Positions 3,066-31,084 of a stretch of DNA of 32,000 nucleotides are shown here, piece by piece (position 1 is the first letter of the stretch; each line of letters starts with the position of its first letter). The notes below the pieces were generated by a model. The model saw only the letters and a program-made list of their open reading frames with translations, was not told the origin of the DNA and searched no databases. Source of the DNA: Hyphomicrobiales bacterium (GTDB lineage: Bacteria > Pseudomonadota > Alphaproteobacteria > Rhizobiales > Rhodomicrobiaceae). The stretch spans positions 109,701 through 141,700 of the forward strand of contig JANRIQ010000030.1 in assembly GCA_033764775.1 (NCBI GenBank), in the 5' to 3' direction. The position numbers and the translations under genes were made by a program.

Positions 3066-3157
3066 GGAGTGGTGGCTGAGAGGCCGAAGGCACTCGTTTG
3101 CTAAATGAGCGGGCTCAGAAATGGGTCCCGGGGGTTCGAATCCCCCCCACTCCGCCA
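3066..3157 (+). tRNA. tRNA-Ser (anticodon GCU)
   Basis: Hand-folded cloverleaf. Acceptor GGAGTGG/CCACTCC. D arm GCT-GAGAGGCCGAA-GGC. Anticodon stem CTCGT/ATGAG with loop TTGCTAA (anticodon GCT at 3100-3102). 20-nt long variable arm. T arm GGGGG-TTCGAAT-CCCCC. Discriminator G and encoded CCA. Confidence 0.9.
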
Positions 3158-4774
3158 CTTCGGTATAAAACCGGGAACGCCGATTCCCGCCGTTTTCCCT
3201 CCCTTAGTAGCTACCAGCGTCCTCAACAGGACGCTTTTGCTGCCTTTGAGATAGATCGCGTCATCCGCGACCTCGACGTGCTGGGCGAAGGCCCGGACGT
3301 GTTCCCGCCGATAGCCGCCCTTTCCGAGCCGGAGCCGGGTGCGGGCTTCGCTCGCCAGTTCCCGCACGGCCGCGCCTGTGAGGCCCTGATGAGCCGCGCT
3401 TTTCAGCATGGCCTCGGTCCTTTCGGCGTCGGCCCGCGCCTGATCCCGAAGCGCCGTGAGGCCCGCGATGCGCTCGCCAAGGGCGGACTCGGCTGGGTCG
3501 AGCGAACCGGCTTCAATGGCGTCATAGAGACGCTTTAGGCGCATGTCGGCCTCGGCCGCTCGCTGGTTCAATTCTGCGATGTGCTGGCTGCGCCGCTCGA
3601 CGCTCTCCTGCCGGCGGTCCAGCAGCGAGGCGAGCACGTCTTCGATCCGCTCGGGGTCCAGTAGCCTTTCCTCGATATGGCTGACCACGATGCGGTCGAG
3701 CTTGTCCATGGGGATCGCACGGCCCTTGCAGCCGGTGTCACCCTGCCGCGCCCGGATCGAGCAGGCATAATAGCGATAGCGGCCGTTCTTGCCGGTGCGC
3801 AGCGTCATCGCGCCTCCGCAATTGCCGCAATGGCAAATGCCGGTCAGCAGGTTCGGGCCGCTGACGACGCGCGGCGGCGTCACCTTCGGATTGTTCACCT
3901 GCAAGCGCCTCTGCACGGCCTCGAATATCTCAAGGTCGATCAGCGGCGGCACGGGGACGGTGACGATTTCTTCCTCGGGCTTCACCTCGCCCTTTTTGGA
4001 GCGGCGATTGAAACGATGCTCACCGATATAGGTGCGGCGGGTCAGGATGCGGTGAAGCTGGCCGATGCCCCAACGTCCGCCGCTGCGGGTGAACATGCGG
4101 TTCCTGTTCAAGTAGCTGACGATGTTCTTGACGCCCATGGGGCCGGACGTGCCGTCGCCTTCCGTTGCAAGGCGGAAGATCAGCCGCACGGTGTCGGCGT
4201 GCAGCGGGTCGATTTCCAGCTTCTTCTTCATCTTCGCGCCGCGCTGCTCGGCATCGACGACACGGTAGCCGATGGGCGGCAGGGAGCCGTTCCAGAAGCC
4301 TTGCCGCGCGTTTTCCTTCAACGCCCGAATGACGTGCTTGCCGTTCTCCTTGGACTGGTATTCGTCGAACAGCGCCATGATCTGCCGCATCATGACGTGC
4401 ATGGGATCGTCGCCCATTTCCTGCGTGATGGAGACCAGCTTGACGCCGTTTTTGGCGAGCTTCCTGACGTTGAACTCCAGCTCGAAGTGATCGCGGAAAA
4501 AGCGGCTGAACGAATGGACCACAACCACATCGAAGGGCGCGGGCTTGGACGTGCCTGCCTCGATCATGCGTTGAAACTCGGGGCGGCGGTCATTGGTGGC
4601 GGACGCGCCGGCTTCCACGAAGGTTTCGACAAGCTGGTAGCCGCGCGACTGGCAATAGGCTTCGCCCTGCTTGCGCTGGTCGGGGATCGACACGTCATGC
4701 TCGGCCTGCCGCGTCGTGGAGACGCGCAGGTAGAGCGCGGCGCGCAAGGCGACATGAGGACTTTGCATATTCAC
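3101..4774 (-). CDS. large serine recombinase (ICE integrase candidate)
   Basis: It has an N-terminal resolvase catalytic domain (ALYLRVSTTRQ, VVVHSFSRFFRD), a recombinase domain, a Cys-rich zinc ribbon (CHCGNCGG...YYACSIRARQGDTGCKG) and a long coiled-coil tail. GTG 4774 lies 6 nt after AGGAGG (alternative ATG 4768). The TAG stop at 3103-3101 sits in the tRNA-Ser anticodon loop. Confidence 0.9.
   Translation of the reverse strand: MNMQSPHVALRAALYLRVSTTRQAEHDVSIPDQRKQGEAYCQSRGYQLVETFVEAGASATNDRRPEFQRMIEAGTSKPAPFDVVVVHSFSRFFRDHFELEFNVRKLAKNGVKLVSITQEMGDDPMHVMMRQIMALFDEYQSKENGKHVIRALKENARQGFWNGSLPPIGYRVVDAEQRGAKMKKKLEIDPLHADTVRLIFRLATEGDGTSGPMGVKNIVSYLNRNRMFTRSGGRWGIGQLHRILTRRTYIGEHRFNRRSKKGEVKPEEEIVTVPVPPLIDLEIFEAVQRRLQVNNPKVTPPRVVSGPNLLTGICHCGNCGGAMTLRTGKNGRYRYYACSIRARQGDTGCKGRAIPMDKLDRIVVSHIEERLLDPERIEDVLASLLDRRQESVERRSQHIAELNQRAAEADMRLKRLYDAIEAGSLDPAESALGERIAGLTALRDQARADAERTEAMLKSAAHQGLTGAAVRELASEARTRLRLGKGGYRREHVRAFAQHVEVADDAIYLKGSKSVLLRTLVATKGGKTAGIGVPGFIPKWRSGGDSNPRDPFLSPLI
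3172..3196 (+). terminator. weak terminator-like hairpin just 3' of tRNA-Ser
   Basis: CGGGAA-CGCCGA-TTCCCG (6-bp stem) is followed by CCGTTTT. It lies inside the 3' end of the recombinase ORF on the other strand. Confidence 0.3.
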
Positions 4775-5160
4775 GACCGGCCTCCTTTCGCCGTGCGGCG
4801 TTCTATCAGCGGCAATTCCAGCTCCACGCGGTCATGCAGCACTTTGGGAACGACCTTCTGGCCCTCGCCGGGGTCCATGCGGATCAGGCCGTAGCTCGCC
4901 ATCTTTTTGAGGGTTCGGGACAGGCTGGGCTTTGCCCGCCCCGTGATCCGCGACAGTTCCTCCAGCGAACCGGGCGACTGCTCGTCGATGACGCGCAGCA
5001 GCTCGCGGTTCCCGCTCGAAAGGAGCTGCGCGAAGGATTCCATGGATGTGAACCACACCTTCGGATCGTCGGCCGCCGGCTTTTCCTCGCCGCGCGCGAT
5101 CCGCATGGTGCGGGCCTTCATCTCGTCATAGCCGGCAATCCCGACTTTCAATGTGGTCAT
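4771..5160 (-). CDS. winged-HTH DNA-binding protein (antitoxin-like / MarR-like)
   Basis: 129 aa. The stretch WFTSMESFAQLLSSGNRELLRVI...LEELSRITGRAKPSLSRTLKKMASYGLI reads as a wHTH. ATGA-type overlaps occur with both neighbours. Confidence 0.6.
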   Translation of the reverse strand: MTTLKVGIAGYDEMKARTMRIARGEEKPAADDPKVWFTSMESFAQLLSSGNRELLRVIDEQSPGSLEELSRITGRAKPSLSRTLKKMASYGLIRMDPGEGQKVVPKVLHDRVELELPLIERRTAKGGRS

Positions 5161-5510
5161 GTTACGCCTCGCTCCTTCAACACCGCATCCACCGCCTGCC
5201 AGAAGTCGGCCAGCAGCGTGGCCGCATCCTCGTAGGCGTAGGGCTTCACGGTCTGGAAGCGATGCCGATGGTCCATCGGCTCGCCCCTCCTGCCTCGGCC
5301 GACCGGATGGGCGTTATCGAAGCCGACCAGCCGTTCGCCCGAAGGCCCGTGAAGCGTGAGCGAGTAATCGAGGCCGTGCGGCTTCTCCGGCGATGCCGGA
5401 ACGCGGGTGACAATGAACTTCACCCAATGGCCGCCCTCGGGATCGACAACGAGCACCTGTCCGTCGAGGTCCAGAAGCGTGTCGAGGCTCGGGTCACGAT
5501 CCTCGCTCAT
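5157..5510 (-). CDS. small protein resembling DUF6516/TumE-like toxin family (tentative)
   Basis: 117 aa, with protein-like composition (HWVKFIVTRV...YSLTLHGPSGERLVGFDNAH). The family call is from recollection only. ATGA overlaps occur on both sides. Confidence 0.45.
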   Translation of the reverse strand: MSEDRDPSLDTLLDLDGQVLVVDPEGGHWVKFIVTRVPASPEKPHGLDYSLTLHGPSGERLVGFDNAHPVGRGRRGEPMDHRHRFQTVKPYAYEDAATLLADFWQAVDAVLKERGVT

Positions 5511-5827
5511 GACTTACTGTTACCATGCGGTGTTAACGGTGGCAAGTCCTGAGCGTCAGGATCGTCGATTGGGCCGAACAGCCGGTCGAGCACGTCGCCG
5601 AAATACCGCTCGAAGATTTGCAGTTCTTCCTCAGTGATCGGCACCTTCTCGGGCCAGTCGTCGAAGACAGGCAACGACTCCACATCGACGATGCGAAGCG
5701 GCGAACTGCGGCGCTCCCGGCCGTCCGGCGTGGGTTCGTCGGCATAGTCGAAAAGATCGTCGGGAAGTGTCTCGGGGACCGGCTGTCGCGGTCGCCCTTT
5801 GCGGGCACGGCGGCGCTCTGCGCACAT
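5507..5827 (-). CDS. hypothetical acidic protein, first gene of the recombinase operon
   Basis: 106 aa. AAGGAGG lies 5 nt upstream of ATG 5827. The protein is acidic (DDWPEKVPITEEELQIFERYFGDVLDRLFG) with no domain recognised. Confidence 0.6.
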   Translation of the reverse strand: MCAERRRARKGRPRQPVPETLPDDLFDYADEPTPDGRERRSSPLRIVDVESLPVFDDWPEKVPITEEELQIFERYFGDVLDRLFGPIDDPDAQDLPPLTPHGNSKS

Positions 5828-5880
5828 GGAATCCTCCTTGGTTCGGTGTGGATTCCGGGGCGCTCAAGGCCCCGGAATTA

Positions 5881-5950
5881 GGCGAACCATGGAGGGCAGT
5901 CGGCGGCGTGTAGCGTGCCGCATTTGCGCCTATGCGCTGGCGGCACCCCT
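5881..5950 (-). promoter_or_regulatory. copy A of conserved nested-hairpin leader/operator element
   Basis: Copy A is about 90% identical by hand alignment to 25748-25817, and the 40-nt block 5910-5949 is identical to 25777-25816. It contains GTGCCGC-ATTT-GCGC-CTAT-GCGC-TG-GCGGCAC. It is followed toward the gene by hairpin 5852-5878, then SD and ATG. Confidence 0.5.
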
Positions 5951-5963
5951 GCCGGGATGGGAC

Positions 5964-6185
5964 TTAGCTTGCGGCGCGTCGTGCCTTGGCGAAACCGCGA
6001 TCCGTAGCGATAAACCGCTCCAGCATGGGCACGATCAGCCTGACGGGATCGGCGGCGGGCTGGCCGCTCTCGCGGGCCAGCACCTCGGCATAGGCGACCA
6101 GATCGCGGTGAAGCGGTGCGGGCAGTTCTACCGTCACCTTGACGGGCTTGTCGTCGGGCAACGGGCCGAGTTTGAGCTTGGTCAT
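5964..6185 (-). CDS. DUF2274-like small protein downstream of trbI
   Basis: The internal ATG at 6185, 2 nt after the trbI stop, gives 73 aa (MTKLKLGPLPDDKPVKVTVELPAPLHRDLVAYAE...), typical of the small gene following trbI. The longer 156-aa ORF overlaps trbI and is Arg-rich. Confidence 0.75.
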   Translation of the reverse strand: MTKLKLGPLPDDKPVKVTVELPAPLHRDLVAYAEVLARESGQPAADPVRLIVPMLERFIATDRGFAKARRAAS

Positions 6186-18263: not shown

Positions 18264-19214
18264 TTACCGCCGTCCAATCGGGCGGTTGCTTCCCCGCAAC
18301 TGGCCGGGCGAATCGTCAAAGCGGCTCATCTTGCGTGCAAGGTTGAGCAGATTTTTCAGCGTGGCGCTGCGATTGAACGGCGACCAGACTGCGGTAAAGG
18401 CAACCGGCTCTGGCTCGTCGGCGATGGGCACGAAGACGATGCCGGTCGTCGGCAGCAGCGCCGTGGCCGCCCCGACAATAGTGATGCCAAAGCCCTGTCC
18501 GACCATAGACAACAGCGTGCCGCGCCCCACGTCGAAACGCAGGATCGACGGCGCAGGCCAGCGCCCGGCAAGGCGCAGCACGATATGGTCATGCACCTGC
18601 GGGCCAGTGCCTCCGTGGCGGACAAGGAAAGTCTCGCCGGCCAGATCGGCCCAAGTGATTGCCGACTTCCCGGCGAGGGGATGCTGTTCCGGCAACACGG
18701 CCATCAACGGTTCGGTCCAGATCAGGCGGGTGTGGCAGTCGGGAAGCTCGGGCTTTCCGGCCACGAACACCACGTCCAGACGGTCGGCGCGAAGCTGCAT
18801 GACTGCATCGCGGGCGGTGCCTTCGGTAATCTCGACCTCGATACCAGGATGGTCATCCCGATACTGTCCGATCAACTCGGCAAGGAAGCTGCCGGGAATC
18901 AGGGCATGGATACCGATGCGCAAACGTCCATGCTCGCCTGCCGCCGTCATGCCGGCGGTCTTTACGGCATGGTCAAGCTGATCGACGCCGGCAGCGACGC
19001 GCTCGACGAAGTGCCGTCCGGCCTCGGTCAGTCTGACGCCGCGCGCGTGTCGCTCGAACAGGAGGATGCCAAGGTCTTCCTCCAGCGCCTTCACGCGGGC
19101 GCTAACGCTGGATTGCGCCACACCGAGCGACTTCGCTGCGTGACGGAAATTCAGATGTTCGGCGACCGCGAGCGTCTGGATCAGAGAGGCCATGGGAATA
19201 CGCGAACCAAGCAT
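18264..19214 (-). CDS. LysR-family transcriptional regulator (cargo)
   Basis: N-terminal HTH (LAVAEHLNFRHAAKSLGVAQSSVSARVKALEEDLGILLFER) plus a LysR substrate-binding domain. The start is ambiguous (ATG 19214 or 19193). The track start at 19265 is a GTG. Confidence 0.85.
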   Translation of the reverse strand: MLGSRIPMASLIQTLAVAEHLNFRHAAKSLGVAQSSVSARVKALEEDLGILLFERHARGVRLTEAGRHFVERVAAGVDQLDHAVKTAGMTAAGEHGRLRIGIHALIPGSFLAELIGQYRDDHPGIEVEITEGTARDAVMQLRADRLDVVFVAGKPELPDCHTRLIWTEPLMAVLPEQHPLAGKSAITWADLAGETFLVRHGGTGPQVHDHIVLRLAGRWPAPSILRFDVGRGTLLSMVGQGFGITIVGAATALLPTTGIVFVPIADEPEPVAFTAVWSPFNRSATLKNLLNLARKMSRFDDSPGQLRGSNRPIGRR

Positions 19215-19283
19215 CTGTCGGTTCAAGGGTCCATCTATATCCTTCGGCCTGCGCCTCCTTCGCACCAGCTACACCCCACGACG

Positions 19284-20237
19284 CTACGCGCGGCTCTCGG
19301 CCGGAGCCTCGCCGTGACGACCGGATGCCAGCAGCTTTGCGGCAATGGGCGATGTAATCATTTGGATCACTGCGAAGAATGCGGCTGGAACCGCAATCTC
19401 GCTTGGCAGCCCGGAAGCGACGACAAAGGCCGCTGCGATGCTGAACTCCTTCTTGCTCACGGTGAACAGGTAAGCGATCAGCTCTTGCCGGTCGGTCACG
19501 AAGACCTTTGAGATAAACCCAACTGCGTAGCCGATCAGGTTCAGAGTGAGCGCGGCGAGCGCGATGACGATGGCATACCAGCCATATCCGATGATGGTTT
19601 CGGCGTTCGGCCCGATCACTGCCAGCAGTAGGAGCAGATAGAAGATGGAGCCGATGGAGGGATAAAGGCTATCGTGACGGCCTACGGCGGTCGGGTATCG
19701 CGTGCGTAGATAAACCCCGATGACGGTGGGCACCACGACGATCAGAACAAGTTCGAGAATGATGGCTCCAACGGGAACTTGCAGCTCGATCCCGGTCAGA
19801 GTCAGGAATAGCAAGGGCACGATAAACGGCGATAGAACCGTGTTGACCGCATTTAGGACCGCCGCGAGGGCCACGTTGCCACGGGCCAGCAGAACAAGCA
19901 GCGGGGCGGAAACGTCCGTAGGCAGTGTCCCTACGAGAGTTTGTCCCGCCGCTAGCGGGCCAGAGCCGAAGAATAGGCGTCCGGTAAGCCATCCGGCGAT
20001 GGACATGGGACCATAGACAAGGCCGAGCGCCCAAAGCTGACGGCTAGGCTTCTGGAAAACCAGTCTCACGGCATGAGCATCGAAGGTCAGGCTGATGACC
20101 AGCATCAACGCCGCCAACAGCGGGCTAATCCCGCTTTCCAAGAATTTGCCCAACGAAGGCACGAGCAGGCCGAGGCCGGCGACCGCGATAGCTAACAGCA
20201 GAAGATTGTTCTCAATGAACGCGAGGGCTTTCCGCAT
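19284..20237 (-). CDS. BASS/SBF-like (bile acid:sodium symporter family) transporter (cargo)
   Basis: ATG 20237, with GAGGTG upstream, overlaps the arsR-like stop by 1 nt. The protein is polytopic and carries the SBF-type motif TLPTDVSAPLLVLLARGNVALAAVLNAVNTVLSPFIVPLL. Confidence 0.8.
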   Translation of the reverse strand: MRKALAFIENNLLLLAIAVAGLGLLVPSLGKFLESGISPLLAALMLVISLTFDAHAVRLVFQKPSRQLWALGLVYGPMSIAGWLTGRLFFGSGPLAAGQTLVGTLPTDVSAPLLVLLARGNVALAAVLNAVNTVLSPFIVPLLFLTLTGIELQVPVGAIILELVLIVVVPTVIGVYLRTRYPTAVGRHDSLYPSIGSIFYLLLLLAVIGPNAETIIGYGWYAIVIALAALTLNLIGYAVGFISKVFVTDRQELIAYLFTVSKKEFSIAAAFVVASGLPSEIAVPAAFFAVIQMITSPIAAKLLASGRHGEAPAESRA

Positions 20238-20623
20238 TAGGACACCTCGGGCGCGACAGGTTCGCAACGTATCGGCCCGGTCGGACGACCCTCGCATTTG
20301 GCGAGAAGCGCAATCGCCTTATCGCAATACTTGCAGTGACCTTGACAGCAGTCGTGAACGAGGAAGGCAGAGAGCGCAGTTAGTATCGGCCAGTTGACGC
20401 TATAGATGATCGACTTTCCGTCGCGTCGGCTTTCGATGAGTTGCGCATGTTCCAGTTCCTTAAGGTGGAACGAGACGCGTGAAGGCTGCGCGCCGTCCAG
20501 TGCCGACGCTATCGCCCCCGCCGCCATGCCGTCCGCGCCTGCCACGACCAGCATACGAACGATGCGCAAGCGCGCTTCATGTGAGATTGCCGAGAAGCCG
20601 GCTAGTGCGTCATGTTCATCCAT
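20237..20623 (-). CDS. ArsR/SmtB-family metalloregulator with Cys-rich C-terminus (cargo)
   Basis: wHTH region (HEARLRIVRMLV...AIASALDGAQPSRVSFHLKELEHAQLIESRRDGKSIIY). The C-terminal Cys cluster is HDCCQGHCKYCDKAIALLAKCEG...IRC. Confidence 0.85.
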   Translation of the reverse strand: MDEHDALAGFSAISHEARLRIVRMLVVAGADGMAAGAIASALDGAQPSRVSFHLKELEHAQLIESRRDGKSIIYSVNWPILTALSAFLVHDCCQGHCKYCDKAIALLAKCEGRPTGPIRCEPVAPEVS

Positions 20624-24936: not shown

Positions 24937-25433
24937 GGGTCGATCCTGCGGCGATGAAGCCAAGCGGCATGTCGCTCGGGCGTGTAGGCGTGCGGCTCCA
25001 GATTGGCGGTCAAACGGTTGTGGACGTGCCGCCAGTGGTCCGGCGAGGCGTCGGCCGGATCGAGGCCGAGCGATTCCACGGCGTCGATAGCGGCAAGCGC
25101 GCGCTGCACCTTGGGCCAGCTATCGAGGCGCAACAGGATTTCGCCGCCGGGGCGCACGAACGGCAATGTCTGGAACGGCTCGCCGCGACCGATGGCGCGC
25201 ACAATGTCGATGCGCGAAATGACAGTGCCGTGCTCGCCGCTCGCCCATCGCACGAAGGCAAAGACGCCGCCCGGCGCGAAGCCGACGACGCTGCGGCGTC
25301 GGTCGATGATCTGCTCGTAGCTCTTGCGGCCGAAGCGTATCCAGTGCTCGACCTTGCGTTTCTCGAACGTCAATTCGACCAATGTGGTGAAGGGCGCGGG
25401 TCCATGCGCGCCGCGATGCGCGCGCCGGCTCAT
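24933..25433 (-). CDS. DUF2840-like protein
   Basis: 166 aa (LVELTFEKRKVEHWIRFG...). Position and sequence are typical of the DUF2840 gene in this ICE class. There is an ATGA overlap with the upstream HTH gene. Confidence 0.75.
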   Translation of the reverse strand: MSRRAHRGAHGPAPFTTLVELTFEKRKVEHWIRFGRKSYEQIIDRRRSVVGFAPGGVFAFVRWASGEHGTVISRIDIVRAIGRGEPFQTLPFVRPGGEILLRLDSWPKVQRALAAIDAVESLGLDPADASPDHWRHVHNRLTANLEPHAYTPERHAAWLHRRRIDP

Positions 25434-25699
25434 TGTTCGTTCCGTTCTTCGGGGGTGAGCGGACGCGCGGGAAAGACGGTGCCAGCGGTCTTGTCGCGGG
25501 TGGATTTGCGCTCGCCGGTCGCGCTCCAGTCTTCCAGATCGCGGACGGTGTAGAGGACGCGACCGCCGACCTTGCGATAGGTCGGGCCGGTCCCGTAGGT
25601 GCGATGCTTCTCAAGGGTGCGGATGGATATGCCGAGGAAGCGCGCGGCTTCCTTGGTGCGCAACAGGCGCGGCGGCAGGCCCGCAAGCGGGTTGGGCAT
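25430..25699 (-). CDS. excisionase-family HTH protein (RdfS-like recombination directionality factor / AlpA-like)
   Basis: 89 aa. The stretch LLRTKEAARFLGISIRTLEKHRTYGTGPTYRKVGGRVLYTVRDLEDW is a MerR/excisionase-type wHTH. GGAGGTG lies 4 nt upstream of ATG 25699. It is the first gene of a translationally coupled operon. Confidence 0.75.
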   Translation of the reverse strand: MPNPLAGLPPRLLRTKEAARFLGISIRTLEKHRTYGTGPTYRKVGGRVLYTVRDLEDWSATGERKSTRDKTAGTVFPARPLTPEERNEQ

Positions 25700-25747
25700 G
25701 GATCACCTCCAGTCGGGATTGGGCTGCCGGGGGCGGCAGCGGACTGT

Positions 25748-25817
25748 GGCGAACCATGGCGAGGGATCGGCGGCGCGTAGCGTGCCGCATTTGCGCCTAT
25801 GCGCTGGCGGCACCCCC
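25748..25817 (-). promoter_or_regulatory. copy B of conserved nested-hairpin leader/operator element
   Basis: See copy A. The nested inverted repeat is at 25782-25813. The downstream hairpin is at 25723-25740 (GCTGCCG-GGGG-CGGCAGC), followed by SD and ATG. Confidence 0.5.
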
Positions 25818-26158
25818 CTCGGGCGCGGCGTGGCGAATAGTGAGGGATACCACCGGCTCGATGCCTGCCGCGCCGAATAGGCAAAGACAATCGCACGCCG
25901 TTCGGCTAAGAGTGGCAGCGGAGCAGACGCGCTGCTCTGGGGCGTCGAAACCCCTGACTAGTGGTTGTTGCCGGCCGAAACGGCAACGCACTCCTTGACC
26001 TATGGTCGGGGAGCCTGTGGCGTATACAACAGGCTTTCCGAGCTAAAGGCCATGGGGCCGTCTAGTCACGGTTTCGAACTCCCCGATCACCAAGAGTCAG
26101 AGAGAATCGTTTGCGGGGGCGCACCGCAAGCAAACTTTCTCGGATGTGGGGAAAGACT

Positions 26159-26446
26159 ATGCGGGTTCCCGTCGAACTCGATCCCGATGTGGACGACGAA
26201 GCGCCAACCGGCGACGGCATCACTGTCTATGACGAACGGCATTTCGTGACCTATCTGCGTTTGCTGGATGCAAAGGCCGAGGGCGCGGACTGGAAGGAAG
26301 TCGCGCAGATCGTGCTGCACCGTGATCCGGCCGCCGAGGAAATGCGGACCTATCGTTGCTGGCAAAGCCATCTCGAACGCGCGCAATGGCTTTCGCGCAA
26401 GGGTTATCGAAAGATTCTGGAGCAGACCGCCGCCAATAAGGCGTGA
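26159..26446 (+). CDS. single-domain DUF2285 protein (QseM-like antiactivator candidate)
   Basis: 95 aa from ATG 26159, with GGGGA upstream (alternative ATG 26144). It is internally homologous to the C-terminus of the adjacent FseA-like protein: YLRLLDAKAEGADWKEVAQIVL vs SMRALDARLRGESYRTIAEVLL, and RKGYRKIL vs RGGYRLLL. Confidence 0.65.
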   Translation: MRVPVELDPDVDDEAPTGDGITVYDERHFVTYLRLLDAKAEGADWKEVAQIVLHRDPAAEEMRTYRCWQSHLERAQWLSRKGYRKILEQTAANKA

Positions 26447-26462
26447 GACAATCGCCCCTCGG

Positions 26463-27092
26463 TCAACGCTTGTCGGGCTTGATCGGATAGTGGAGCAACA
26501 GGCGATAGCCTCCGCGCATCATCTTGATACCGTGCGCGACCAGGCGGCGGGCCTTGTTCTTACGCGGGTCGCCCTCAAAGTCCTCTTTGGTGCCGCGAAA
26601 GCCTAGTAGGACTTCGGCGATGGTGCGGTAACTTTCGCCGCGCAGCCGAGCGTCGAGCGCGCGCATGGACAGGATAAGCCATTGCCGGAGCTGGGCGGGA
26701 ACGGCTCGGAAGTCGGGGCCGGGCACGCGGCCGTTGAGAGACCGCCATAAACGGCGGGCGGCATGGGCGCGTAGCTCCAGAAAGGAATCCATCGGCAGGG
26801 TGACGGCATAGAACGTGGCTGCGTCGGGCACCGCCTCGGGCAGCCAGAATTGGTGCGCAACGCCATCCACCTGCCAGATGCCGTGCCAACCATCGGACGC
26901 GCGGCGCATGTCGAGGCCGTCAAGATGCGCAAGCGTCAATGTCGGTTCGGTGTCGTCGTCCTTATGATCGACCGGCGACAGCATCACGGCTTGCGGTTGA
27001 AGGCTCGGACTCCAGATCGGCGATTCCCGGTCATGCGGCGCGTCGGGATCGCACGGGAAATCGTAAACCCCAACGATCCGCGAACGCTTCAA
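26463..27092 (-). CDS. FseA-like activator, DUF2285 portion (+1 frame, no own ATG/SD)
   Basis: The frame is open from 27116 to the stop at 26463. The DUF2285-like C-terminus is ...RTIAEVLLGFRGTKEDFEGDPRKNKARRLVAHGIKMMRGGYRLLL. The track start at 27092 is a TTG inside the upstream ORF. Confidence 0.7.
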   Translation of the reverse strand: MKRSRIVGVYDFPCDPDAPHDRESPIWSPSLQPQAVMLSPVDHKDDDTEPTLTLAHLDGLDMRRASDGWHGIWQVDGVAHQFWLPEAVPDAATFYAVTLPMDSFLELRAHAARRLWRSLNGRVPGPDFRAVPAQLRQWLILSMRALDARLRGESYRTIAEVLLGFRGTKEDFEGDPRKNKARRLVAHGIKMMRGGYRLLLHYPIKPDKR

Positions 27093-27246
27093 GCGCGCGG
27101 CCGGTCGGCTGTCGATTCAGCGCCATGGTCTGGAAATCCTGACGATAATCGTCATTCCGACGCAGGTATTCCCATGCGAAGCCGGCGGCCGGAATGTTCT
27201 TCGCGTGCCTGTATGCCGCCGGCAAACGCCAGTCGATGCTAAGCAT
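27031..27246 (-). CDS. FseA-like activator, N-terminal DUF6499-like portion (0 frame)
   Basis: ATG 27246 lies 7 nt after GGAGG. The sequence MLSIDWRLPAAYRHAKNIPAAGFAWEYLRRNDDYRQDF matches the DUF6499-type N-terminus. The TGA stop is at 27033-27031. Confidence 0.7.
   Translation of the reverse strand: MLSIDWRLPAAYRHAKNIPAAGFAWEYLRRNDDYRQDFQTMALNRQPTGRALEAFADRWGLRFPVRSRRAA
27054..27060 (-). other. candidate +1 frameshift heptamer T-TTC-CCG
   Basis: The 0-frame reads CGA TTT CCC GTG. The +1 frame reads TTC CCG TGC. Either a Phe or a Pro slip gives ...WGLRF-PCDPD... Confidence 0.4.
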
Positions 27247-27263
27247 GGCGTCACCTCCCAAAG

Positions 27264-27289
27264 CCGGGGCGTGTAAGGCAACGCCCCGG
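27264..27289 (-). other. GC-rich hairpin abutting the fseA-like ribosome-binding site
   Basis: On the minus strand, CCGGGGCG-N10-CGCCCCGG is followed by CTTTGGGAGGTGACGCC-ATG. Confidence 0.4.
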
Positions 27290-27444
27290 ACAAGAGAGAT
27301 TCAAAGATTGCTGGAAATATAGAAGCCGCCCAAAGCAGATACGTTGAGCGGCTAACCCGATCATTTTTGGTTTTTTTATTCTTAACACTGTCGTTCAGGT
27401 CTGACTAGTCGTTCGCCCGCGTGTGCGGGCAAACCGACCTAGCT

Positions 27445-27974
27445 TCATCTGCTAGAAAACACATGAACCTCATCATGTGCGGTCTCGATGGTGAAAAGGT
27501 CGCCGCCCATCTCGGCGTCGCGCGCCATCGCTTGCCAATCGACATAGTAGCGCAGCGCCTCGGGGATCGTGATGCTTTCGGCGGTCAGCTCCTCCATGTA
27601 ATCGGCAAGGCTGGCGAACTGACCATGGTAGCAGTCCTGCAAAGCAGACTCTGCTTGGTCCATGTCGCCGACAAACTGCTCCAGCAAGCCCGCGCCTAGC
27701 GCACCATGCTCGACGATGAAAACACACCCATCTGCGCCACGCTCTCAACGCTGTCATACTCCCCGATGGTGACGCCCTCGAAGCCCTCATAGTCATGGAT
27801 GGCGTATTCCTCAGCGTTCTCGATGGGGGACCGTGCGAGCATAGCCGCGATCTCGTTCCTGATCTCGTAGGCGTCCTGATCTGCGTCGATCCAAGCCCCA
27901 TGCAGATAGCCGTTATTGTAGGCGGCAAGGCAGGCAACATAGATACGGGGATTGCTGTCGGCTGCGCTGGTCAT
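27445..27974 (-). pseudogene. ardA: ardA antirestriction gene interrupted by a frameshift
   Basis: The N-terminal part is 27974-27696 (RIYVACLAAYNNGYLHGAWIDA...AIHDYEGF). The C-terminal part is 27687-27445 (...YYVDWQAMARDAEMGGDLFTIETAHDEVHVF). The downstream frame read upstream gives VFIVEHGALGAGLLEQF, continuous with the N-terminal part. The frames change at the T4 run (plus-strand A4 at 27719-27722). Confidence 0.7.
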
Positions 27975-29637: not shown

Positions 29638-29843
29638 TTTATTAAAAAACAGATCTCGTTCTTATGTGGCCAACACTCAAAAACAGATCGTCCCTTTTGT
29701 AACACATACCTCACTTCACCGCTGAAAATGTAAGCAGCTTTAATTTCATATCCTTCCGCTAAAAGAGAGGATAACTTCCTGTCGGTGGCGAAACTTGGCG
29801 TACTGGCCAGCAACGCAGCAATAGCTATAGATAAGCGTATCAC
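29634..29843 (-). CDS. small low-GC secreted ORF translationally coupled to the nuoD stop (hypothetical)
   Basis: GTG 29843 overlaps the nuoD TGA (GTGA). The 69-aa product has the signal peptide (M)[18 protein letters not shown] and two Cys. GC is far below its neighbours by eye. This is the 3' end of an otherwise spurious 362-aa track ORF. Confidence 0.4.
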
Positions 29844-31084
29844 CTGTCGATCTCGCCGAACACGATGTCGAGCGAGCCGAGCACGGCCGACACGTCCGCC
29901 AGCATGTGGCCCTTGCACAGGAAGTCCATGGCGGCGAGATGCGGGAAGCCGGGCGCGCGCACCTTGCACCGATACGGCTTGTTGGTGCCGTCGGCGATGA
30001 GATCCACGCCGAACTCCCCCTTCGGCGCCCCGACCGCCGCATAGACCTCGCCGGCCTCCACCCGGAAACCTTCCGTGTAAAGCTTGAAGTGGTGGATGAC
30101 CGCCTCCATCGAGCGCTTCATGGCGTCCCGGCGCGGCGGCGCGATCTTGTTGTCGGTGGTCAGGACTGGCCCGCCGCCGTTCGGCCCCATGAGCTTGTCG
30201 ATGCACTGCTCCATGATGCTGACGGATTGGCGCATCTCCTCCATGCGGATGAGGTAGCGGTCGAAACAGTCGCCGTTCTTGCCGATGGGGATGTCGAACT
30301 CCATCTCGTCGTAGCACTCGTAGGGCTGGCTCTTGCGCAAGTCCCACGCCGCGCCCGACCCGCGCAGCATCACGCCGGTGAAGCCGTATGCCAGCGCGTC
30401 CTCCAAGCTGACCACGGCGATGTCGACATTGCGCTGCTTGAAGATGCGGTTGTCGGTCAAGAGGCTGTCGATGTCGGCCAGCGTTTTGCGGAACGGGTCG
30501 CACCAGGCGGAGATGTCCTCGATGAGCTGCGGCGGCAAATCCTGGTGCACGCCGCCGGGGCGGAAATAGTTGGCGTGCAGGCGCGAACCGGACGCGCGCT
30601 CGTAAAACACCATCAGCTTTTCGCGCTCCTCGAAGCCCCACAGCGGGGGGGTTAGCGCGCCTACGTCCAGCGCCTGGGTGGTGACATTCAGGAGGTGCGA
30701 AAGGATGCGGCCGATCTCGCAATAGAGCACACGGATGAGCTGGCCGCGCCGCGGAACCTCAAGTCCGAGCAGCTTCTCGATGGCGAGGCAGAACGCGTGC
30801 TCCTGGTTCATCGGCGCGACATAATCGAGCCGGTCGAAATACGGGATCGCCTGCAGATAGGTCTTGTGCTCGATCAGCTTTTCCGTGCCGCGATGCAGCA
30901 GCCCGATATGCGGATCGACGCGCTCGACCACCTCGCCGTCCAGCTCCAGCACAAGGCGCAGCACGCCGTGGGCCGCCGGATGCTGCGGGCCGAAGTTGAT
31001 GGTGAAATTGCGCAACTCGGCTTCGGGCGTTTTGCCCTGCTCCGCCGCCGCTACAGTCTGCGCTGCCGCTCCGCCGTCCGCCAT
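29840..31084 (-). CDS. nuoD: NADH-quinone oxidoreductase subunit D
   Basis: 414 aa with [29 protein letters not shown] and C-terminal [11 protein letters not shown], unmistakably NuoD. Confidence 0.95.

What the first reader, a model, noticed from the sequence alone, without database searches (positions are those of the whole stretch)
25723..25817. Conserved ~70-nt nested-hairpin element plus second hairpin in the leader of the rdfS-like operon
The stretch 25748-25817 reads GGCGAACCATGG..TCGGCGGCGCGTAGC-GTGCCGC-ATTT-GCGC-CTAT-GCGC-TG-GCGGCAC-CCC. This is a 7-bp outer inverted repeat enclosing a 4-bp stem with a tetraloop. Toward the gene it is followed by a separate hairpin (25723-25740), then GGAGGTG and ATG 25699. 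An almost identical element occurs at 5881-5950, where the second hairpin (5852-5878) has a completely different sequence but the same position. Conservation of structure but not sequence in the second hairpin argues for a functional RNA leader or a structured operator. In ICEMlSymR7A the rdfS promoter is the target of FseA, so this is the obvious candidate FseA-responsive region.
Basis: partly seen in the sequence, partly recalled or inferred. Interest (0 to 1): 0.7.

Follow-up and report, generated by a model that had tools for sequence, protein, structure and literature searches.

The report
Duplicated FseA-box promoter with leader hairpins
The repeated ~70-base element is the binding site and core promoter for FseA, the activator that switches on transfer of this mobile element. 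It occurs twice, once before the excision/transfer operon and once before the integrase operon, and each copy is followed by a small hairpin at the predicted start of the messenger RNA.

Summary
A 69-bp block occurs twice in the window, at 25748-25816 and 5881-5949, both on the minus strand, and nowhere else. Each copy is followed by a different hairpin.

The block is best read as DNA, not as a folded RNA leader. Its 5' half has the exact geometry of the published FseA box of ICEMlSymR7A: hexamer, 16 bp, hexamer, with a central CG in each hexamer. A frameshifted fseA gene and a qseM-like gene lie next to copy A. By homology with the start site mapped in Mesorhizobium, transcription should begin at the last base of the block.

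The inner 4-bp "nested" stem is not conserved. Across about 160 related loci the block precedes only two genes: an rdfS-like gene, or the first gene of a serine-recombinase operon. The second context does not appear in the papers I read.

The downstream hairpin keeps its position and its pairing through compensatory changes, so it is a real leader structure. Its function is unknown.

One unexpected feature: the 3' third of the block is complementary to the ribosome-binding site. This is strongest at copy B (13 nt, 92%). It could silence read-through transcripts.

Verdict: known kind, new member, with two untested extra layers.

The parts
25748..25816 (-). Copy A of the 69-bp conserved module (FseA box plus core promoter), upstream of the rdfS-like operon
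   Evidence: nhmmer E 4.5e-22. Conservation begins and ends sharply at these edges in 52 and 34 unique relatives. Median identity to relatives is 94%, against 84% for the downstream CDS.
25784..25811 (.). FseA-box copy A: hexamers GCCGCC (25806-25811) and TGCGGC (25784-25789) separated by 16 bp. The exact repeat extends to GTGCCGC/GCGGCAC (25782-25813).
   Evidence: The geometry matches the published box: 28 bp, hexamer centres 22 bp apart, central CG in each hexamer. It also matches the R7A sequence rebuilt from the published oligonucleotides. The outer pairs are invariant in 132 relatives.
25747..25748 (-). Predicted transcription start of the rdfS-like operon (inferred, not mapped)
   Evidence: [quoted passage not shown] That puts the start 36-37 nt after the hexamer. 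The same offset here falls on the last base of the conserved block.
25723..25740 (-). Leader hairpin A (GCUGCCG-CCCC-CGGCAGC). In this lineage it is extended by the stem CAGUC (25742-25746) / GACUG (25710-25714), which abuts the Shine-Dalgarno sequence.
   Evidence: Covariation across 79 distinct relatives: 88.6% of cells paired against 22-64% with slid partners, and 39 compensatory cells.
25430..25710 (-). Shine-Dalgarno GGAGGTG (25704-25710), ATG at 25699, and the rdfS-like HTH_17 gene. It is the first gene of an operon of overlapping ORFs running through DUF2840, S26 TraF, SLT and a 106-aa ORF to the relaxase (down to 20723).
5881..5949 (-). Copy B of the 69-bp module. It lies 14 nt after the stop codon of the DUF2274 gene that ends the trb operon, and upstream of the recombinase operon.
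   Evidence: nhmmer E 1e-21. No terminator-like site was found in 5700-6100.
5917..5944 (.). FseA-box copy B, identical in sequence to copy A (the exact repeat spans 5915-5946)
5852..5878 (-). Leader hairpin B (AUUCCGGGGC-7 nt-GCCCCGGAAU), starting 2-3 nt after the predicted start at about 5880-5881
   Evidence: Across 42 relatives 86.8% of cells are paired against 13-62% with slid partners, and 5 pairs show changes on both sides.
5833..5895 (-). 13-nt inverted repeat. CCUCCAUGGUUCG (5883-5895) lies inside the -10-like end of the module. CGAACCAAGGAGG (5833-5845) contains the Shine-Dalgarno sequence of the first gene.
   Evidence: 92% complementary. It is part of the minimum-energy fold of the 131-nt region, z -4.6. 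The helix is 80.8% paired across 42 relatives. The predicted probability that the Shine-Dalgarno is unpaired is 0.23 in the short RNA and 0.002 in the long RNA.
3101..5827 (-). Recombinase operon of four overlapping ORFs: 106-aa protein with no family (5507-5827), TumE/DUF6516-like (5157-5510), winged-HTH (4771-5160), large serine recombinase (3101-4774)
   Evidence: The same gene order follows the element in Enterobacter, Brevundimonas and Paracoccus plasmids.
26463..27261 (-). fseA as two ORFs: DUF6499 (27031-27261) and DUF2285 (26463-27092). A +1 frameshift site UGGGGUUUACGAUUUCCC lies at 27055-27072.
   Evidence: Pfam PF20109 E 2.7e-24 and PF10074 E 2.4e-29. Sequence read. The UUUC slippery site and G-rich stretch match those described for msi172-msi171.
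26159..26446 (+). qseM-like gene: a 95-aa protein with only a DUF2285 domain, divergent from rdfS
   Evidence: PF10074 E 1.1e-06. The same arrangement is annotated in Ketogulonicigenium pYP1.

Best explanation
The conserved 69 bp form a portable, activator-dependent promoter cassette that works as double-stranded DNA.

**Proposed mechanism.**
1. The 5' 28 bp are an FseA box. A dimer of the ICE-encoded activator FseA binds here. FseA needs a +1 ribosomal frameshift to be made, and the neighbouring QseM-like protein probably holds it in check.
2. The next ~36 bp are the core promoter: a -35-like region directly after the box and a -10-like CATGGT. Transcription starts at or next to the last base of the block.
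3. The cassette is present twice in this integrative conjugative element. Copy A drives the operon that runs from the rdfS-like gene to the relaxase. Copy B drives the operon that ends in the large serine recombinase. One activator would therefore switch on DNA processing/transfer and recombination in parallel.
4. Each transcript begins with a hairpin specific to its promoter type. The hairpin is under selection for pairing. Its most likely role is to stabilise the mRNA or tune its translation.

**Shown here.**
- The duplication of the block.
- Box geometry identical to the published one.
- The restriction of the block to two gene contexts.
- Conservation of the block above that of the neighbouring coding sequence.
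- Covariation in the leader hairpins.

**Inferred.**
- FseA binding.
- The position of the transcription start.
- The function of the hairpins.
For: - **Box geometry.** GCCGCC-N16-TGCGGC has its central CG dinucleotides at the same positions as R7A GCCGAC-N16-GGCGAA. I rebuilt the R7A sequence from published oligonucleotides. The published description is a 28-bp box with hexamer centres 22 bp apart, directly upstream of the -35; FseA binds the 71-bp R7A PrdfS probe containing it with Kd ~30 nM.
- **Regulators present.** fseA with its frameshift site and a qseM-like gene lie directly upstream of copy A. The same synteny is annotated in pYP1.
- **Two contexts only.** A pattern scan of genomes gave 101 true elements: 59 before rdfS homologues, 39 before homologues of the 106-aa first gene of the recombinase operon, and 3 before other sequence. 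An independent metagenome scan gave 45 and 16.
- **Both types in one genome.** Both occur on the same contig in Hyphomicrobium GJ21 and Paracoccus aurantiacus.
- **Sharp conservation edges.** Conservation ends exactly where the Mesorhizobium-based offset places the transcription start.
- **Strong conservation.** The block is 93-94% conserved, against 77-84% for the downstream CDS.
- **Hairpin.** It is present in nearly all leaders, with 22 and 16 distinct stems in the two types, and shows compensatory changes.
Against: - No transcription start or protein binding has been measured for this ICE family. The start site rests on a conserved distance from a system whose -35 and -10 sequences do not resemble these.
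- No consensus sigma-70 promoter is detected at either site.
- 18 of the 69 positions were fixed by the first search pattern. The second scan left them free and they remained conserved.
- The 3' third of the block is complementary to the ribosome-binding site. That is not expected of a plain promoter and would fit a start site further upstream.
- The test for sense-strand RNA pairing (G.U against A.C mismatches) was uninformative, 6 against 8. The hairpins could in principle act as DNA palindromes.
Confidence: 0.75

Rival explanations
1. Fold-back protection, as an addition to the promoter reading. The last ~25 bp of the cassette lie upstream of the native start. Only transcripts that read through from upstream genes contain them. 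In those transcripts they pair with the ribosome-binding site and block translation. FseA-initiated transcripts lack this arm and are translated. This would shield the recombinase and rdfS operons from leaky read-through, for example from the trb operon that ends 14 nt before copy B.
For: - A 13-nt, 92% inverted repeat joins 5883-5895 and 5833-5845.
- The duplex between the block and the 25 nt before the start codon averages -18.7 kcal/mol (recombinase type) and -18.0 kcal/mol (rdfS type), against -9 to -12 for shuffles.
- The helix is 80.8% paired in 42 relatives, against 31-49% with slid partners.
- For the recombinase type, the predicted probability that the Shine-Dalgarno is unpaired falls from 0.27 in the short RNA to 0.02 in the long RNA. 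The shuffled-block control gives 0.22. The drop occurs in 32 of 32 sequences.
- For rdfS leaders other than the window's own lineage it falls from 0.33 to 0.14, with a control of 0.25.
- Cognate block-tail pairs are more stable than non-cognate pairs within each type: 0/2000 and 13/2000 permutations were as low.
- No terminator lies between the trb operon and copy B.
Against: - The helix shows no true covariation, because both arms are nearly invariant.
- The permutation test does not control for relatedness.
- Copy A of this window shows no predicted effect (0.29 to 0.40).
- The idea depends on an unmapped transcription start.
- Each arm may be conserved for its own reason, one as a -10 region and the other as a ribosome-binding site.
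Confidence: 0.35
2. The hairpins just after the start site are DNA operators for element-encoded repressors. Candidates are the RdfS-like protein at copy A and the winged-helix protein of the recombinase operon at copy B. Each would give negative autoregulation.
For: - In ICEMlSymR7A, RdfS binds its own promoter over the -10/+1 region and lowers FseA-activated expression by ~54%.
- Both hairpins are good palindromes.
- The recombinase-type stem is largely conserved in sequence.
Against: - Loop length varies from 3 to 8 nt and stem length from 4 to 12 bp. A dimer operator would not tolerate that.
- The rdfS-type stems change sequence by compensatory substitution, while the helix-turn-helix region of the RdfS-like proteins is almost invariant across stem classes.
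- R7A RdfS has no consensus binding motif.
Confidence: 0.12
3. The whole ~70-nt element is transcribed and acts as a structured cis-regulatory RNA, the nested-hairpin leader proposed by the first reader. Alternatively, the start lies upstream of the -10-like block, and the helix that sequesters the ribosome-binding site belongs to the native mRNA.
For: - The outer repeat can form a -23.5 kcal/mol hairpin, z -3.0.
- The 131-nt region at copy B folds with z -4.6 on the sense strand.
- The block is complementary to the ribosome-binding site.
Against: - The inner stem is intact in only 59 of 132 relatives, without compensation.
- Unpaired stretches such as CACGCTAC and CCGCCGA are as conserved as the paired ones.
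- The antisense strand folds equally well, with z -4.95 at copy B, as expected of DNA palindromes.
- Copy A folds no better than shuffles, z -0.97.
- No Rfam family matches.
- In R7A the repeat works as an orientation-dependent DNA site bound by FseA, upstream of a mapped start.
Confidence: 0.07
4. The repeat is a transcription terminator for the upstream operon, or a passive repeated or mobile sequence with no regulatory role.
For: - Copy B lies 14 nt after the end of the trb operon.
- The sequence is GC-rich and palindromic.
Against: - No U-tract is present, and no terminator-like site is called at either copy.
- Copy A has no upstream gene on the same strand ending nearby.
- The element keeps a fixed orientation and distance to just two kinds of downstream gene in about 160 loci.
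- It is better conserved than the coding sequence next to it.
Confidence: 0.03

Closest known systems
FseA box / PrdfS promoter of ICEMlSymR7A (Ramsay et al. 2015; Jowsey et al. 2023, PMC10359603)
   Same: - Two inverted hexamers 16 bp apart, with a conserved central CG and a 28-bp span.
- Position upstream of an rdfS-like gene that heads the operon from rdfS through traF to the relaxase.
- An activator with DUF6499 and DUF2285 domains, made through a +1 frameshift at UUUC.
- A small antiactivator-like protein with only a DUF2285 domain.
- The published logo came from 439 alphaproteobacterial PrdfS sequences, so copy A is probably already inside that set.
   Different: - The repeat is longer and exact here (7-bp arms).
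- The -35/-10 region has no resemblance to R7A.
- A second, nearly identical cassette drives a serine-recombinase operon. In R7A, intS encodes a tyrosine recombinase that is activated indirectly through RdfS.
- fseA and the qseM-like gene sit directly next to rdfS.
- The leader is ~47 nt and carries a conserved hairpin, against ~25 nt in Mesorhizobium.
IS10/Tn10 'fold-back inhibition', the protection of the transposase gene from external promoters (Davis, Simons and Kleckner 1985; cited from my own knowledge, not checked here)
   Same: - It belongs to a mobile element.
- Sequence upstream of the native start is complementary to the ribosome-binding site of a recombinase gene. Only read-through transcripts can form the occluding helix.
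   Different: - Here this is only predicted.
- The upstream arm coincides with the -10-like part of an activator-dependent promoter.
- It is found at two promoters of an integrative conjugative element.
- It is strong at copy B and absent by prediction at copy A of this window.
5'-terminal stabilising stem-loops such as the ompA 5' UTR (Emory, Bouvet and Belasco 1992; cited from my own knowledge)
   Same: - A stable hairpin lies within a few nucleotides of the (predicted) 5' end.
- The sequence is free to vary as long as pairing is kept.
   Different: - No half-life data exist, and the 5' end is not mapped.
- In the rdfS type 3-7 unpaired nucleotides would precede the stem, which may be too many for protection.

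Membership tests
FseA box (operator of PrdfS-type promoters) | Two inverted hexamers separated by 15-16 bp (28-bp box, centres ~22 bp apart), with two conserved central bases in each hexamer | tested here: met
   GCCGCC-N16-TGCGGC occurs at 25784-25811 and 5917-5944. The central CG dinucleotides align with R7A GCCGAC-N16-GGCGAA (definition). The core pairs are invariant in 132 relatives.
FseA box (operator of PrdfS-type promoters) | Lies directly upstream of the -35, about 36-37 nt before the transcription start | tested here: inconclusive
   No start site is mapped here. The conserved block ends exactly 36 nt after the proximal hexamer, which matches the Mesorhizobium offset. No consensus promoter is called.
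FseA box (operator of PrdfS-type promoters) | Precedes an rdfS-like gene that heads the transfer operon | tested here: met
   Copy A precedes HTH_17, DUF2840, S26 TraF, SLT and the relaxase. 59 of 101 and 45 of 61 related elements precede rdfS homologues. Copy B does not meet this feature: it precedes a recombinase operon.
FseA box (operator of PrdfS-type promoters) | An FseA activator (DUF6499 + DUF2285) is encoded by the same element | tested here: met
   PF20109 and PF10074 on two overlapping ORFs, with a UUUC +1 frameshift site.
FseA box (operator of PrdfS-type promoters) | FseA binds the box and activates transcription | not testable with these tools
   Needs a gel-shift assay and reporter assays. 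This has been shown only for R7A.
Structured cis-regulatory RNA leader (nested hairpin) | Stems maintained by compensatory change across relatives | tested here: not met
   The inner stem is intact in 59 of 132 relatives, and its changes are one-sided. The outer arms are almost invariant, so they say nothing either way. There is no Rfam match.
Conserved 5' leader hairpin | Pairing kept while the sequence changes, at a fixed position | tested here: met
   rdfS type: 88.6% of cells paired against 22-64% with slid partners, 39 compensatory cells, 0/500 shuffles as high (uncorrected MAFFT alignment). Recombinase type: 86.8% against 13-62%, with 5 pairs changed on both sides.
5'-terminal stabilising stem-loop | The stem begins within about 2-4 nt of the RNA 5' end and lengthens mRNA half-life | not testable with these tools
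   The offset from the inferred start is 2-3 nt at copy B and 7 nt at copy A, or 1 nt if the outer stem is counted. The 5' end and the half-life are unmeasured.
Fold-back inhibition (protection from external promoters) | Sequence upstream of the native start is complementary to the ribosome-binding site | tested here: met
   Copy B has a 13-nt repeat, 92% complementary. Family-wide duplexes average -18 to -19 kcal/mol against -9 to -12 for shuffles. At copy A the complementarity is only partial, and there is no predicted occlusion.
Fold-back inhibition (protection from external promoters) | Read-through transcripts are untranslated and native transcripts are translated | not testable with these tools
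   Only thermodynamic predictions are available.
Intrinsic terminator | GC-rich hairpin followed by a U-tract | tested here: not met
   No terminator-like sites in 25600-26200 or 5700-6100.
Sigma-54 promoter | GG at -24 and an invariant GC at -12, plus an AAA+ activator | tested here: not met
   CGGCACG-N4-nnGC resembles the consensus. However, the -12 GC is replaced by AC, AT or GT in members that look functional, such as L002 and L004. FseA has no AAA+ domain.

The most novel reading that the evidence does not exclude
In this widespread family of serine-recombinase ICEs, the FseA-box cassette may be a dual-purpose module.

- As DNA it is an activator-dependent promoter, placed in front of both the transfer operon and the recombinase operon.
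- As RNA, its last ~25 nt appear only in read-through transcripts. There they fold back on the ribosome-binding site and silence translation.

Excision and transfer genes would then be expressed only from FseA-initiated transcripts. The covarying 5' hairpin would be a third layer, acting on mRNA stability or translation.
Probability: 0.3. Interest if true: 0.6.

Novelty: new member of a known kind. Interest (0 to 1): 0.42.

Why it matters
FseA is the master switch for transfer of ICEMlSymR7A-type elements, and so far it has one characterised target, PrdfS.

- **A second target.** A nearly identical cassette in front of a serine-recombinase operon is conserved from alphaproteobacterial chromosomes to Enterobacter/Klebsiella KPC plasmids. 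That gives a second, directly testable FseA target. It suggests that in this family recombinase expression is wired in parallel with the transfer operon, not downstream of RdfS.
- **Further control layers.** The conserved leader hairpins, and the match between promoter and ribosome-binding site, point to post-transcriptional safeguards against accidental excision. Simple reporter constructs could test them.
- **Practical use.** The 69-bp block is specific: in the genome scan, 94 of the 120 loci matching an 18-base pattern from the block were true elements. It could serve as a marker for finding these elements in genomes.

Tried and rejected
- **RNAalifold on MAFFT-aligned rdfS leaders.** It found no hairpin because the stems were out of register. 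I named the structure explicitly and realigned with a covariance model.
- **blastn of the rebuilt R7A PrdfS against plasmids.** No match. R7A could therefore be compared only through the published oligonucleotides.
- **The 2015 PNAS paper.** The start-site position comes from PMC5882170.
- **Strand test for the hairpins.** G.U against A.C mismatches gave 6 against 8, which is uninformative.
- **RdfS operator idea for hairpin A.** Weakened, because the helix-turn-helix region is invariant while the stems differ.
- **Alternative pairing GGAAUCC/GGAUUCC in the copy-B leader.** It is not kept in variants.
- **Sigma-54 promoter reading.** Rejected (see the membership test).
- **A third copy in the window.** None was found by profile or degenerate-repeat scans.
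- **Rfam.** Nothing matches the element itself.
- **Metagenome pattern scan.** About half of its hits were chance matches. I filtered them by the identity of the downstream gene.
Full report
**Setting**

The window holds an integrative conjugative element (ICE) whose genes are almost all on the minus strand.
- A tRNA-Ser gene lies at 3066-3157.
- A large serine recombinase is encoded at 3101-4774.
- A complete trb type IV secretion cluster ends with trbI and a DUF2274 gene. The DUF2274 stop codon is at 5964.
- traG follows, then a cargo pair (a LysR regulator and an SBF transporter).
- An operon of overlapping ORFs runs from an 89-aa HTH_17 rdfS-like gene (25430-25699) through DUF2840, an S26 TraF peptidase, an SLT transglycosylase and a 106-aa ORF to a DUF3363 relaxase.
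- Upstream of the rdfS-like gene lie a divergent 95-aa gene with only a DUF2285 domain (qseM-like, 26159-26446) and two overlapping ORFs carrying DUF6499 and DUF2285.
- These two ORFs are joined by the motif UGGGGUUUACGAUUUCCC. This matches the UUUC +1 frameshift site with an upstream G-rich stretch described for msi172-msi171 (fseA) of ICEMlSymR7A.

**Checking the observation**

- The two regions share 84% identity over 89 nt.
- A profile built from relatives finds exactly two copies, at 25749-25816 and 5882-5949, with E-values of about 1e-21. Nothing else in the window scores below E = 1.
- The 7-bp arms GTGCCGC/GCGGCAC, 18 nt apart, and the two different downstream hairpins are exact.
- Copy B lies 14 nt after the DUF2274 stop codon. 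It sits in front of four overlapping ORFs: a 106-aa protein with no family match, a TumE/DUF6516-like protein, a winged-helix protein and the serine recombinase.

**What the element is**

Jowsey et al. (PMC10359603) define the FseA box of the rdfS promoter as follows.
- Two inverted hexamers lie 16 bp apart (15 bp in some relatives), each with two conserved central bases.
- The box is 28 bp long, with hexamer centres 22 bp apart.
- It lies directly upstream of the -35 and is required in the correct orientation.
- The FseA dimer binds the 71-bp PrdfS probe that contains it with a Kd of about 30 nM.

I rebuilt the R7A promoter from the tiled oligonucleotides in the supplement of PMC11963761. It reads TTCCC-GCCGAC-N16-GGCGAA-AACTCC. 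Read on the minus strand, the window element is GGGGT-GCCGCC-N16-TGCGGC-ACGCTA. The hexamers have the same length and the same spacing, and the central CG falls at the same positions.

[quoted passage not shown] The start is therefore 36-37 nt after the hexamer. Applied here, that offset falls on 25747/25748 and 5880/5881. These are the last base of the conserved block and the base after it.

**Relatives**

- **Plasmids.** A blastn search of plasmids found the element at 83-87% identity in Ketogulonicigenium pYP1. There it sits in front of an rdfS-like gene, downstream of annotated DUF6499, DUF2285 and small DUF2285 genes. It was also found in Enterobacter/Klebsiella, Brevundimonas and Paracoccus plasmids, in front of the same recombinase operon.
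- **Genomes.** A degenerate 18-base pattern returned 120 loci from the genome collection, of which 94 were true elements. Adding the two window copies and five plasmid loci gives 101. Of these, 59 precede rdfS homologues, 39 precede homologues of the 106-aa gene, and 3 precede something else.
- **Same-contig pairs.** Both types occur on one contig in Hyphomicrobium sp. GJ21 and in Paracoccus aurantiacus.
- **Edges and level of conservation.** Conservation starts abruptly at GGGGTGCCG and stops abruptly at GTTCGCC. The block is 93-94% identical to the window copies, against 77-84% for the first 240 nt of the downstream gene and 62-70% for the 69 nt upstream.
- **Control for search bias.** The first pattern fixed 18 of the 69 positions. 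I therefore ran a second scan on metagenomes with a pattern that left the middle free. I kept only hits followed by an rdfS or 106-aa homologue (61 loci). CACGCTnC, CCGCCG and CCA[T/C]GGTTCGCC remained highly conserved.
- **A subfamily.** One subfamily has an extended perfect repeat, GTGCCGGAATC-N8-GATTCCGGCAC.

**The 'nested hairpin'**

- The inner GCGC..GCGC stem is fully paired in only 59 of 132 unique elements, and its changes are almost all on one side. It is not a selected structure. This agrees with the published finding that single substitutions in the spacer have no effect.
- The outer arms are almost invariant. The few informative changes keep the symmetry: T-A to G-C in 3 sequences, and C-G to G-C or T-A in 7.
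- At copy B the antisense strand folds as well as the sense strand. At copy A neither strand folds better than shuffled sequence.
- No Rfam family matches the element.

Together with the position of the inferred start, this makes the 69-bp block a DNA operator plus promoter, not an RNA leader.

**The second hairpin**

- A hairpin begins 0-7 nt after the end of the block in nearly every relative. There are 22 distinct stems in the rdfS type and 16 in the recombinase type. Loops are 3-8 nt. Mean z-scores against shuffles are -2.6 and -4.1.
- On an uncorrected MAFFT alignment of 44 rdfS leaders, the 7-bp stem is 82% paired, against 19-65% with slid partners.
- After realignment with a covariance model over 79 distinct sequences, it is 88.6% paired against 22-64%. 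Three of the seven pairs carry 39 compensatory cells (U-A to C-G, and C-G to U-A). None of 500 shuffles reaches the covariation score.
- The recombinase-type stem is more conserved in sequence. It still shows five pairs changed on both sides and is 86.8% paired against 13-62%.
- The hairpin lacks a U-tract.
- The helix-turn-helix region of the RdfS-like proteins is almost invariant across stem classes. With the variable loop length, this argues against a sequence-specific RdfS operator.
- A strand test (G.U against A.C mismatches) was uninformative. RNA function is therefore the most natural reading but is not proven.
- At the inferred start, the hairpin would sit at the very 5' end of the mRNA: 2-3 nt in at copy B, and 1 nt in at copy A if the CAGUC/GACUG outer stem is counted.

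**An unexpected feature**

The 3' third of the block, including the -10-like CCATGGTTCG, is complementary to the ribosome-binding region.
- **Copy B.** CCUCCAUGGUUCG (5883-5895) matches CGAACCAAGGAGG (5833-5845) at 12 of 13 positions, and the pair encloses the hairpin. It forms in the minimum-energy fold of the 131-nt region, z -4.6.
- **Across relatives.** The duplex between the block and the 25 nt before the start codon averages -18.7 kcal/mol (recombinase type) and -18.0 kcal/mol (rdfS type). Shuffled controls give -9 to -12.
- **No covariation.** The helix is 80.8% paired in 42 sequences, but both arms are nearly invariant.
- **Cognate pairs.** Cognate arm pairs are slightly more stable than non-cognate ones. 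That test ignores relatedness.
- **Predicted accessibility of the Shine-Dalgarno sequence.** Values are the probability that it is unpaired. 'Short RNA' starts at the inferred start. 'Long RNA' includes the block. The control shuffles the 3' part of the block.

| Leader type | Short RNA | Long RNA | Control |
|---|---|---|---|
| Recombinase type (drop seen in 32 of 32) | 0.27 | 0.02 | 0.22 |
| rdfS type, lineages other than the window's | 0.33 | 0.14 | 0.25 |
| rdfS type, the window's own lineage (mean of 14 sequences) | 0.30 | 0.40 | 0.26 |

If the start is where I infer it, only read-through transcripts carry the upstream arm. An example is read-through from the trb operon, which ends 14 nt before copy B with no terminator. 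This would resemble the fold-back protection of the IS10 transposase (my own knowledge). If the start is further upstream, the helix would be a built-in translational block. I rate the read-through reading at about one in three.

**Comparison with what is known, and novelty**

- Copy A is a member of the known PrdfS/FseA-box class. The published logo already draws on 439 alphaproteobacterial sequences.
- I found no mention of a second FseA-box promoter, of serine recombinases in this context, or of leader hairpins in the papers I read. This is absence from a limited library, not proof of novelty.
- In R7A the tyrosine integrase gene is activated indirectly, by RdfS binding at attP. Here the recombinase operon carries its own copy of the activator site.
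- An inference follows. The rdfS-like gene heads the operon even on a plasmid with no recombinase in the 6-kb stretch shown (pYP1). In this family it may therefore act mainly as a regulator or transfer factor. The directionality factor for the serine recombinase may lie in the recombinase operon itself.

**Verdict**

- The RNA-leader idea for the 70-nt element is wrong.
- The second hairpin is a real, covarying leader structure of unknown function.
- The finding is a new member of a known kind, with a moderately interesting and testable extension.

Noticed in passing
window 26004-26096 (+): Sub-threshold match to Rfam sRNA-Xcc1 (RF02221): 37.9 bits against a gathering score of 53, E 2e-05 for the stretch searched. 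It lies just upstream of the qseM-like gene, on that gene's strand. The same match, in the same place and orientation, occurs in 6 of 8 related loci (33-40 bits). It is probably a divergent relative of this sRNA or a qseM leader.
   Followed up: partly
window 27246-27300 (-): The fseA leader forms a strong stem-loop (CCGGGGCGU/ACGCCCCGG). An outer stem, AUCUCUC/GGGAGGU, pairs with the fseA Shine-Dalgarno sequence. dG is -27.7 kcal/mol, z -3.2. This may be another translational brake on the activator.
   Followed up: partly
window 3066-3157 (+) and 3101-4774 (-): The 3' end of the serine-recombinase ORF overlaps the tRNA-Ser(GCT) gene by 57 nt. The ICE end, or attachment site, appears to lie inside the recombinase coding sequence. 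The other ICE end was not located.
   Followed up: no
window 27445-27974 (-): The ArdA antirestriction gene is split into two ORFs (27696-27974 and 27445-27687) that match the N- and C-terminal halves of the Pfam model. It is either a frameshifted pseudogene or a sequencing error.
   Followed up: no
window 5828-5834 / 5850-5856: GGAAUCC, which includes the 3' arm of leader hairpin B, can alternatively pair with GGAUUCC just before the AUG (7 nt, 100% complementary). The full-leader minimum-energy fold uses this pairing in many relatives. It is not kept in variant sequences.
   Followed up: partly
leaders of related loci (e.g. L002, L007, L022) and window 5840-5846: A block (A)CGAACC just before the Shine-Dalgarno sequence is conserved in most leaders of both promoter types. 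In the window's own rdfS lineage it is replaced by CGACUGG, which pairs with CAGUC at the 5' end of the leader instead.
   Followed up: partly
metagenome loci: A subfamily of the element has an extended perfect repeat, GTGCCGGAATC-N8-GATTCCGGCAC. Here both hexamers are exact complements (GCCGGA/TCCGGC).
   Followed up: no
L001 (Enterobacter hormaechei pKPC_CAV1176) and the related Enterobacter and Klebsiella plasmid hits: The recombinase-type cassette, together with trbF-trbI, DUF2274 and the recombinase operon, is present on KPC plasmids of Enterobacterales at 87% identity. No rdfS-type copy was detected on those records.
   Followed up: no
window 18264-20297 (-) and 29840-31084 (-): A LysR regulator and an SBF-family transporter are inserted between traG and the relaxase, apparently as cargo. 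An isolated ORF whose translation looks NuoD-like by eye (not checked against any family) lies near the right end of the window, beside a Uma2 endonuclease gene.
   Followed up: no
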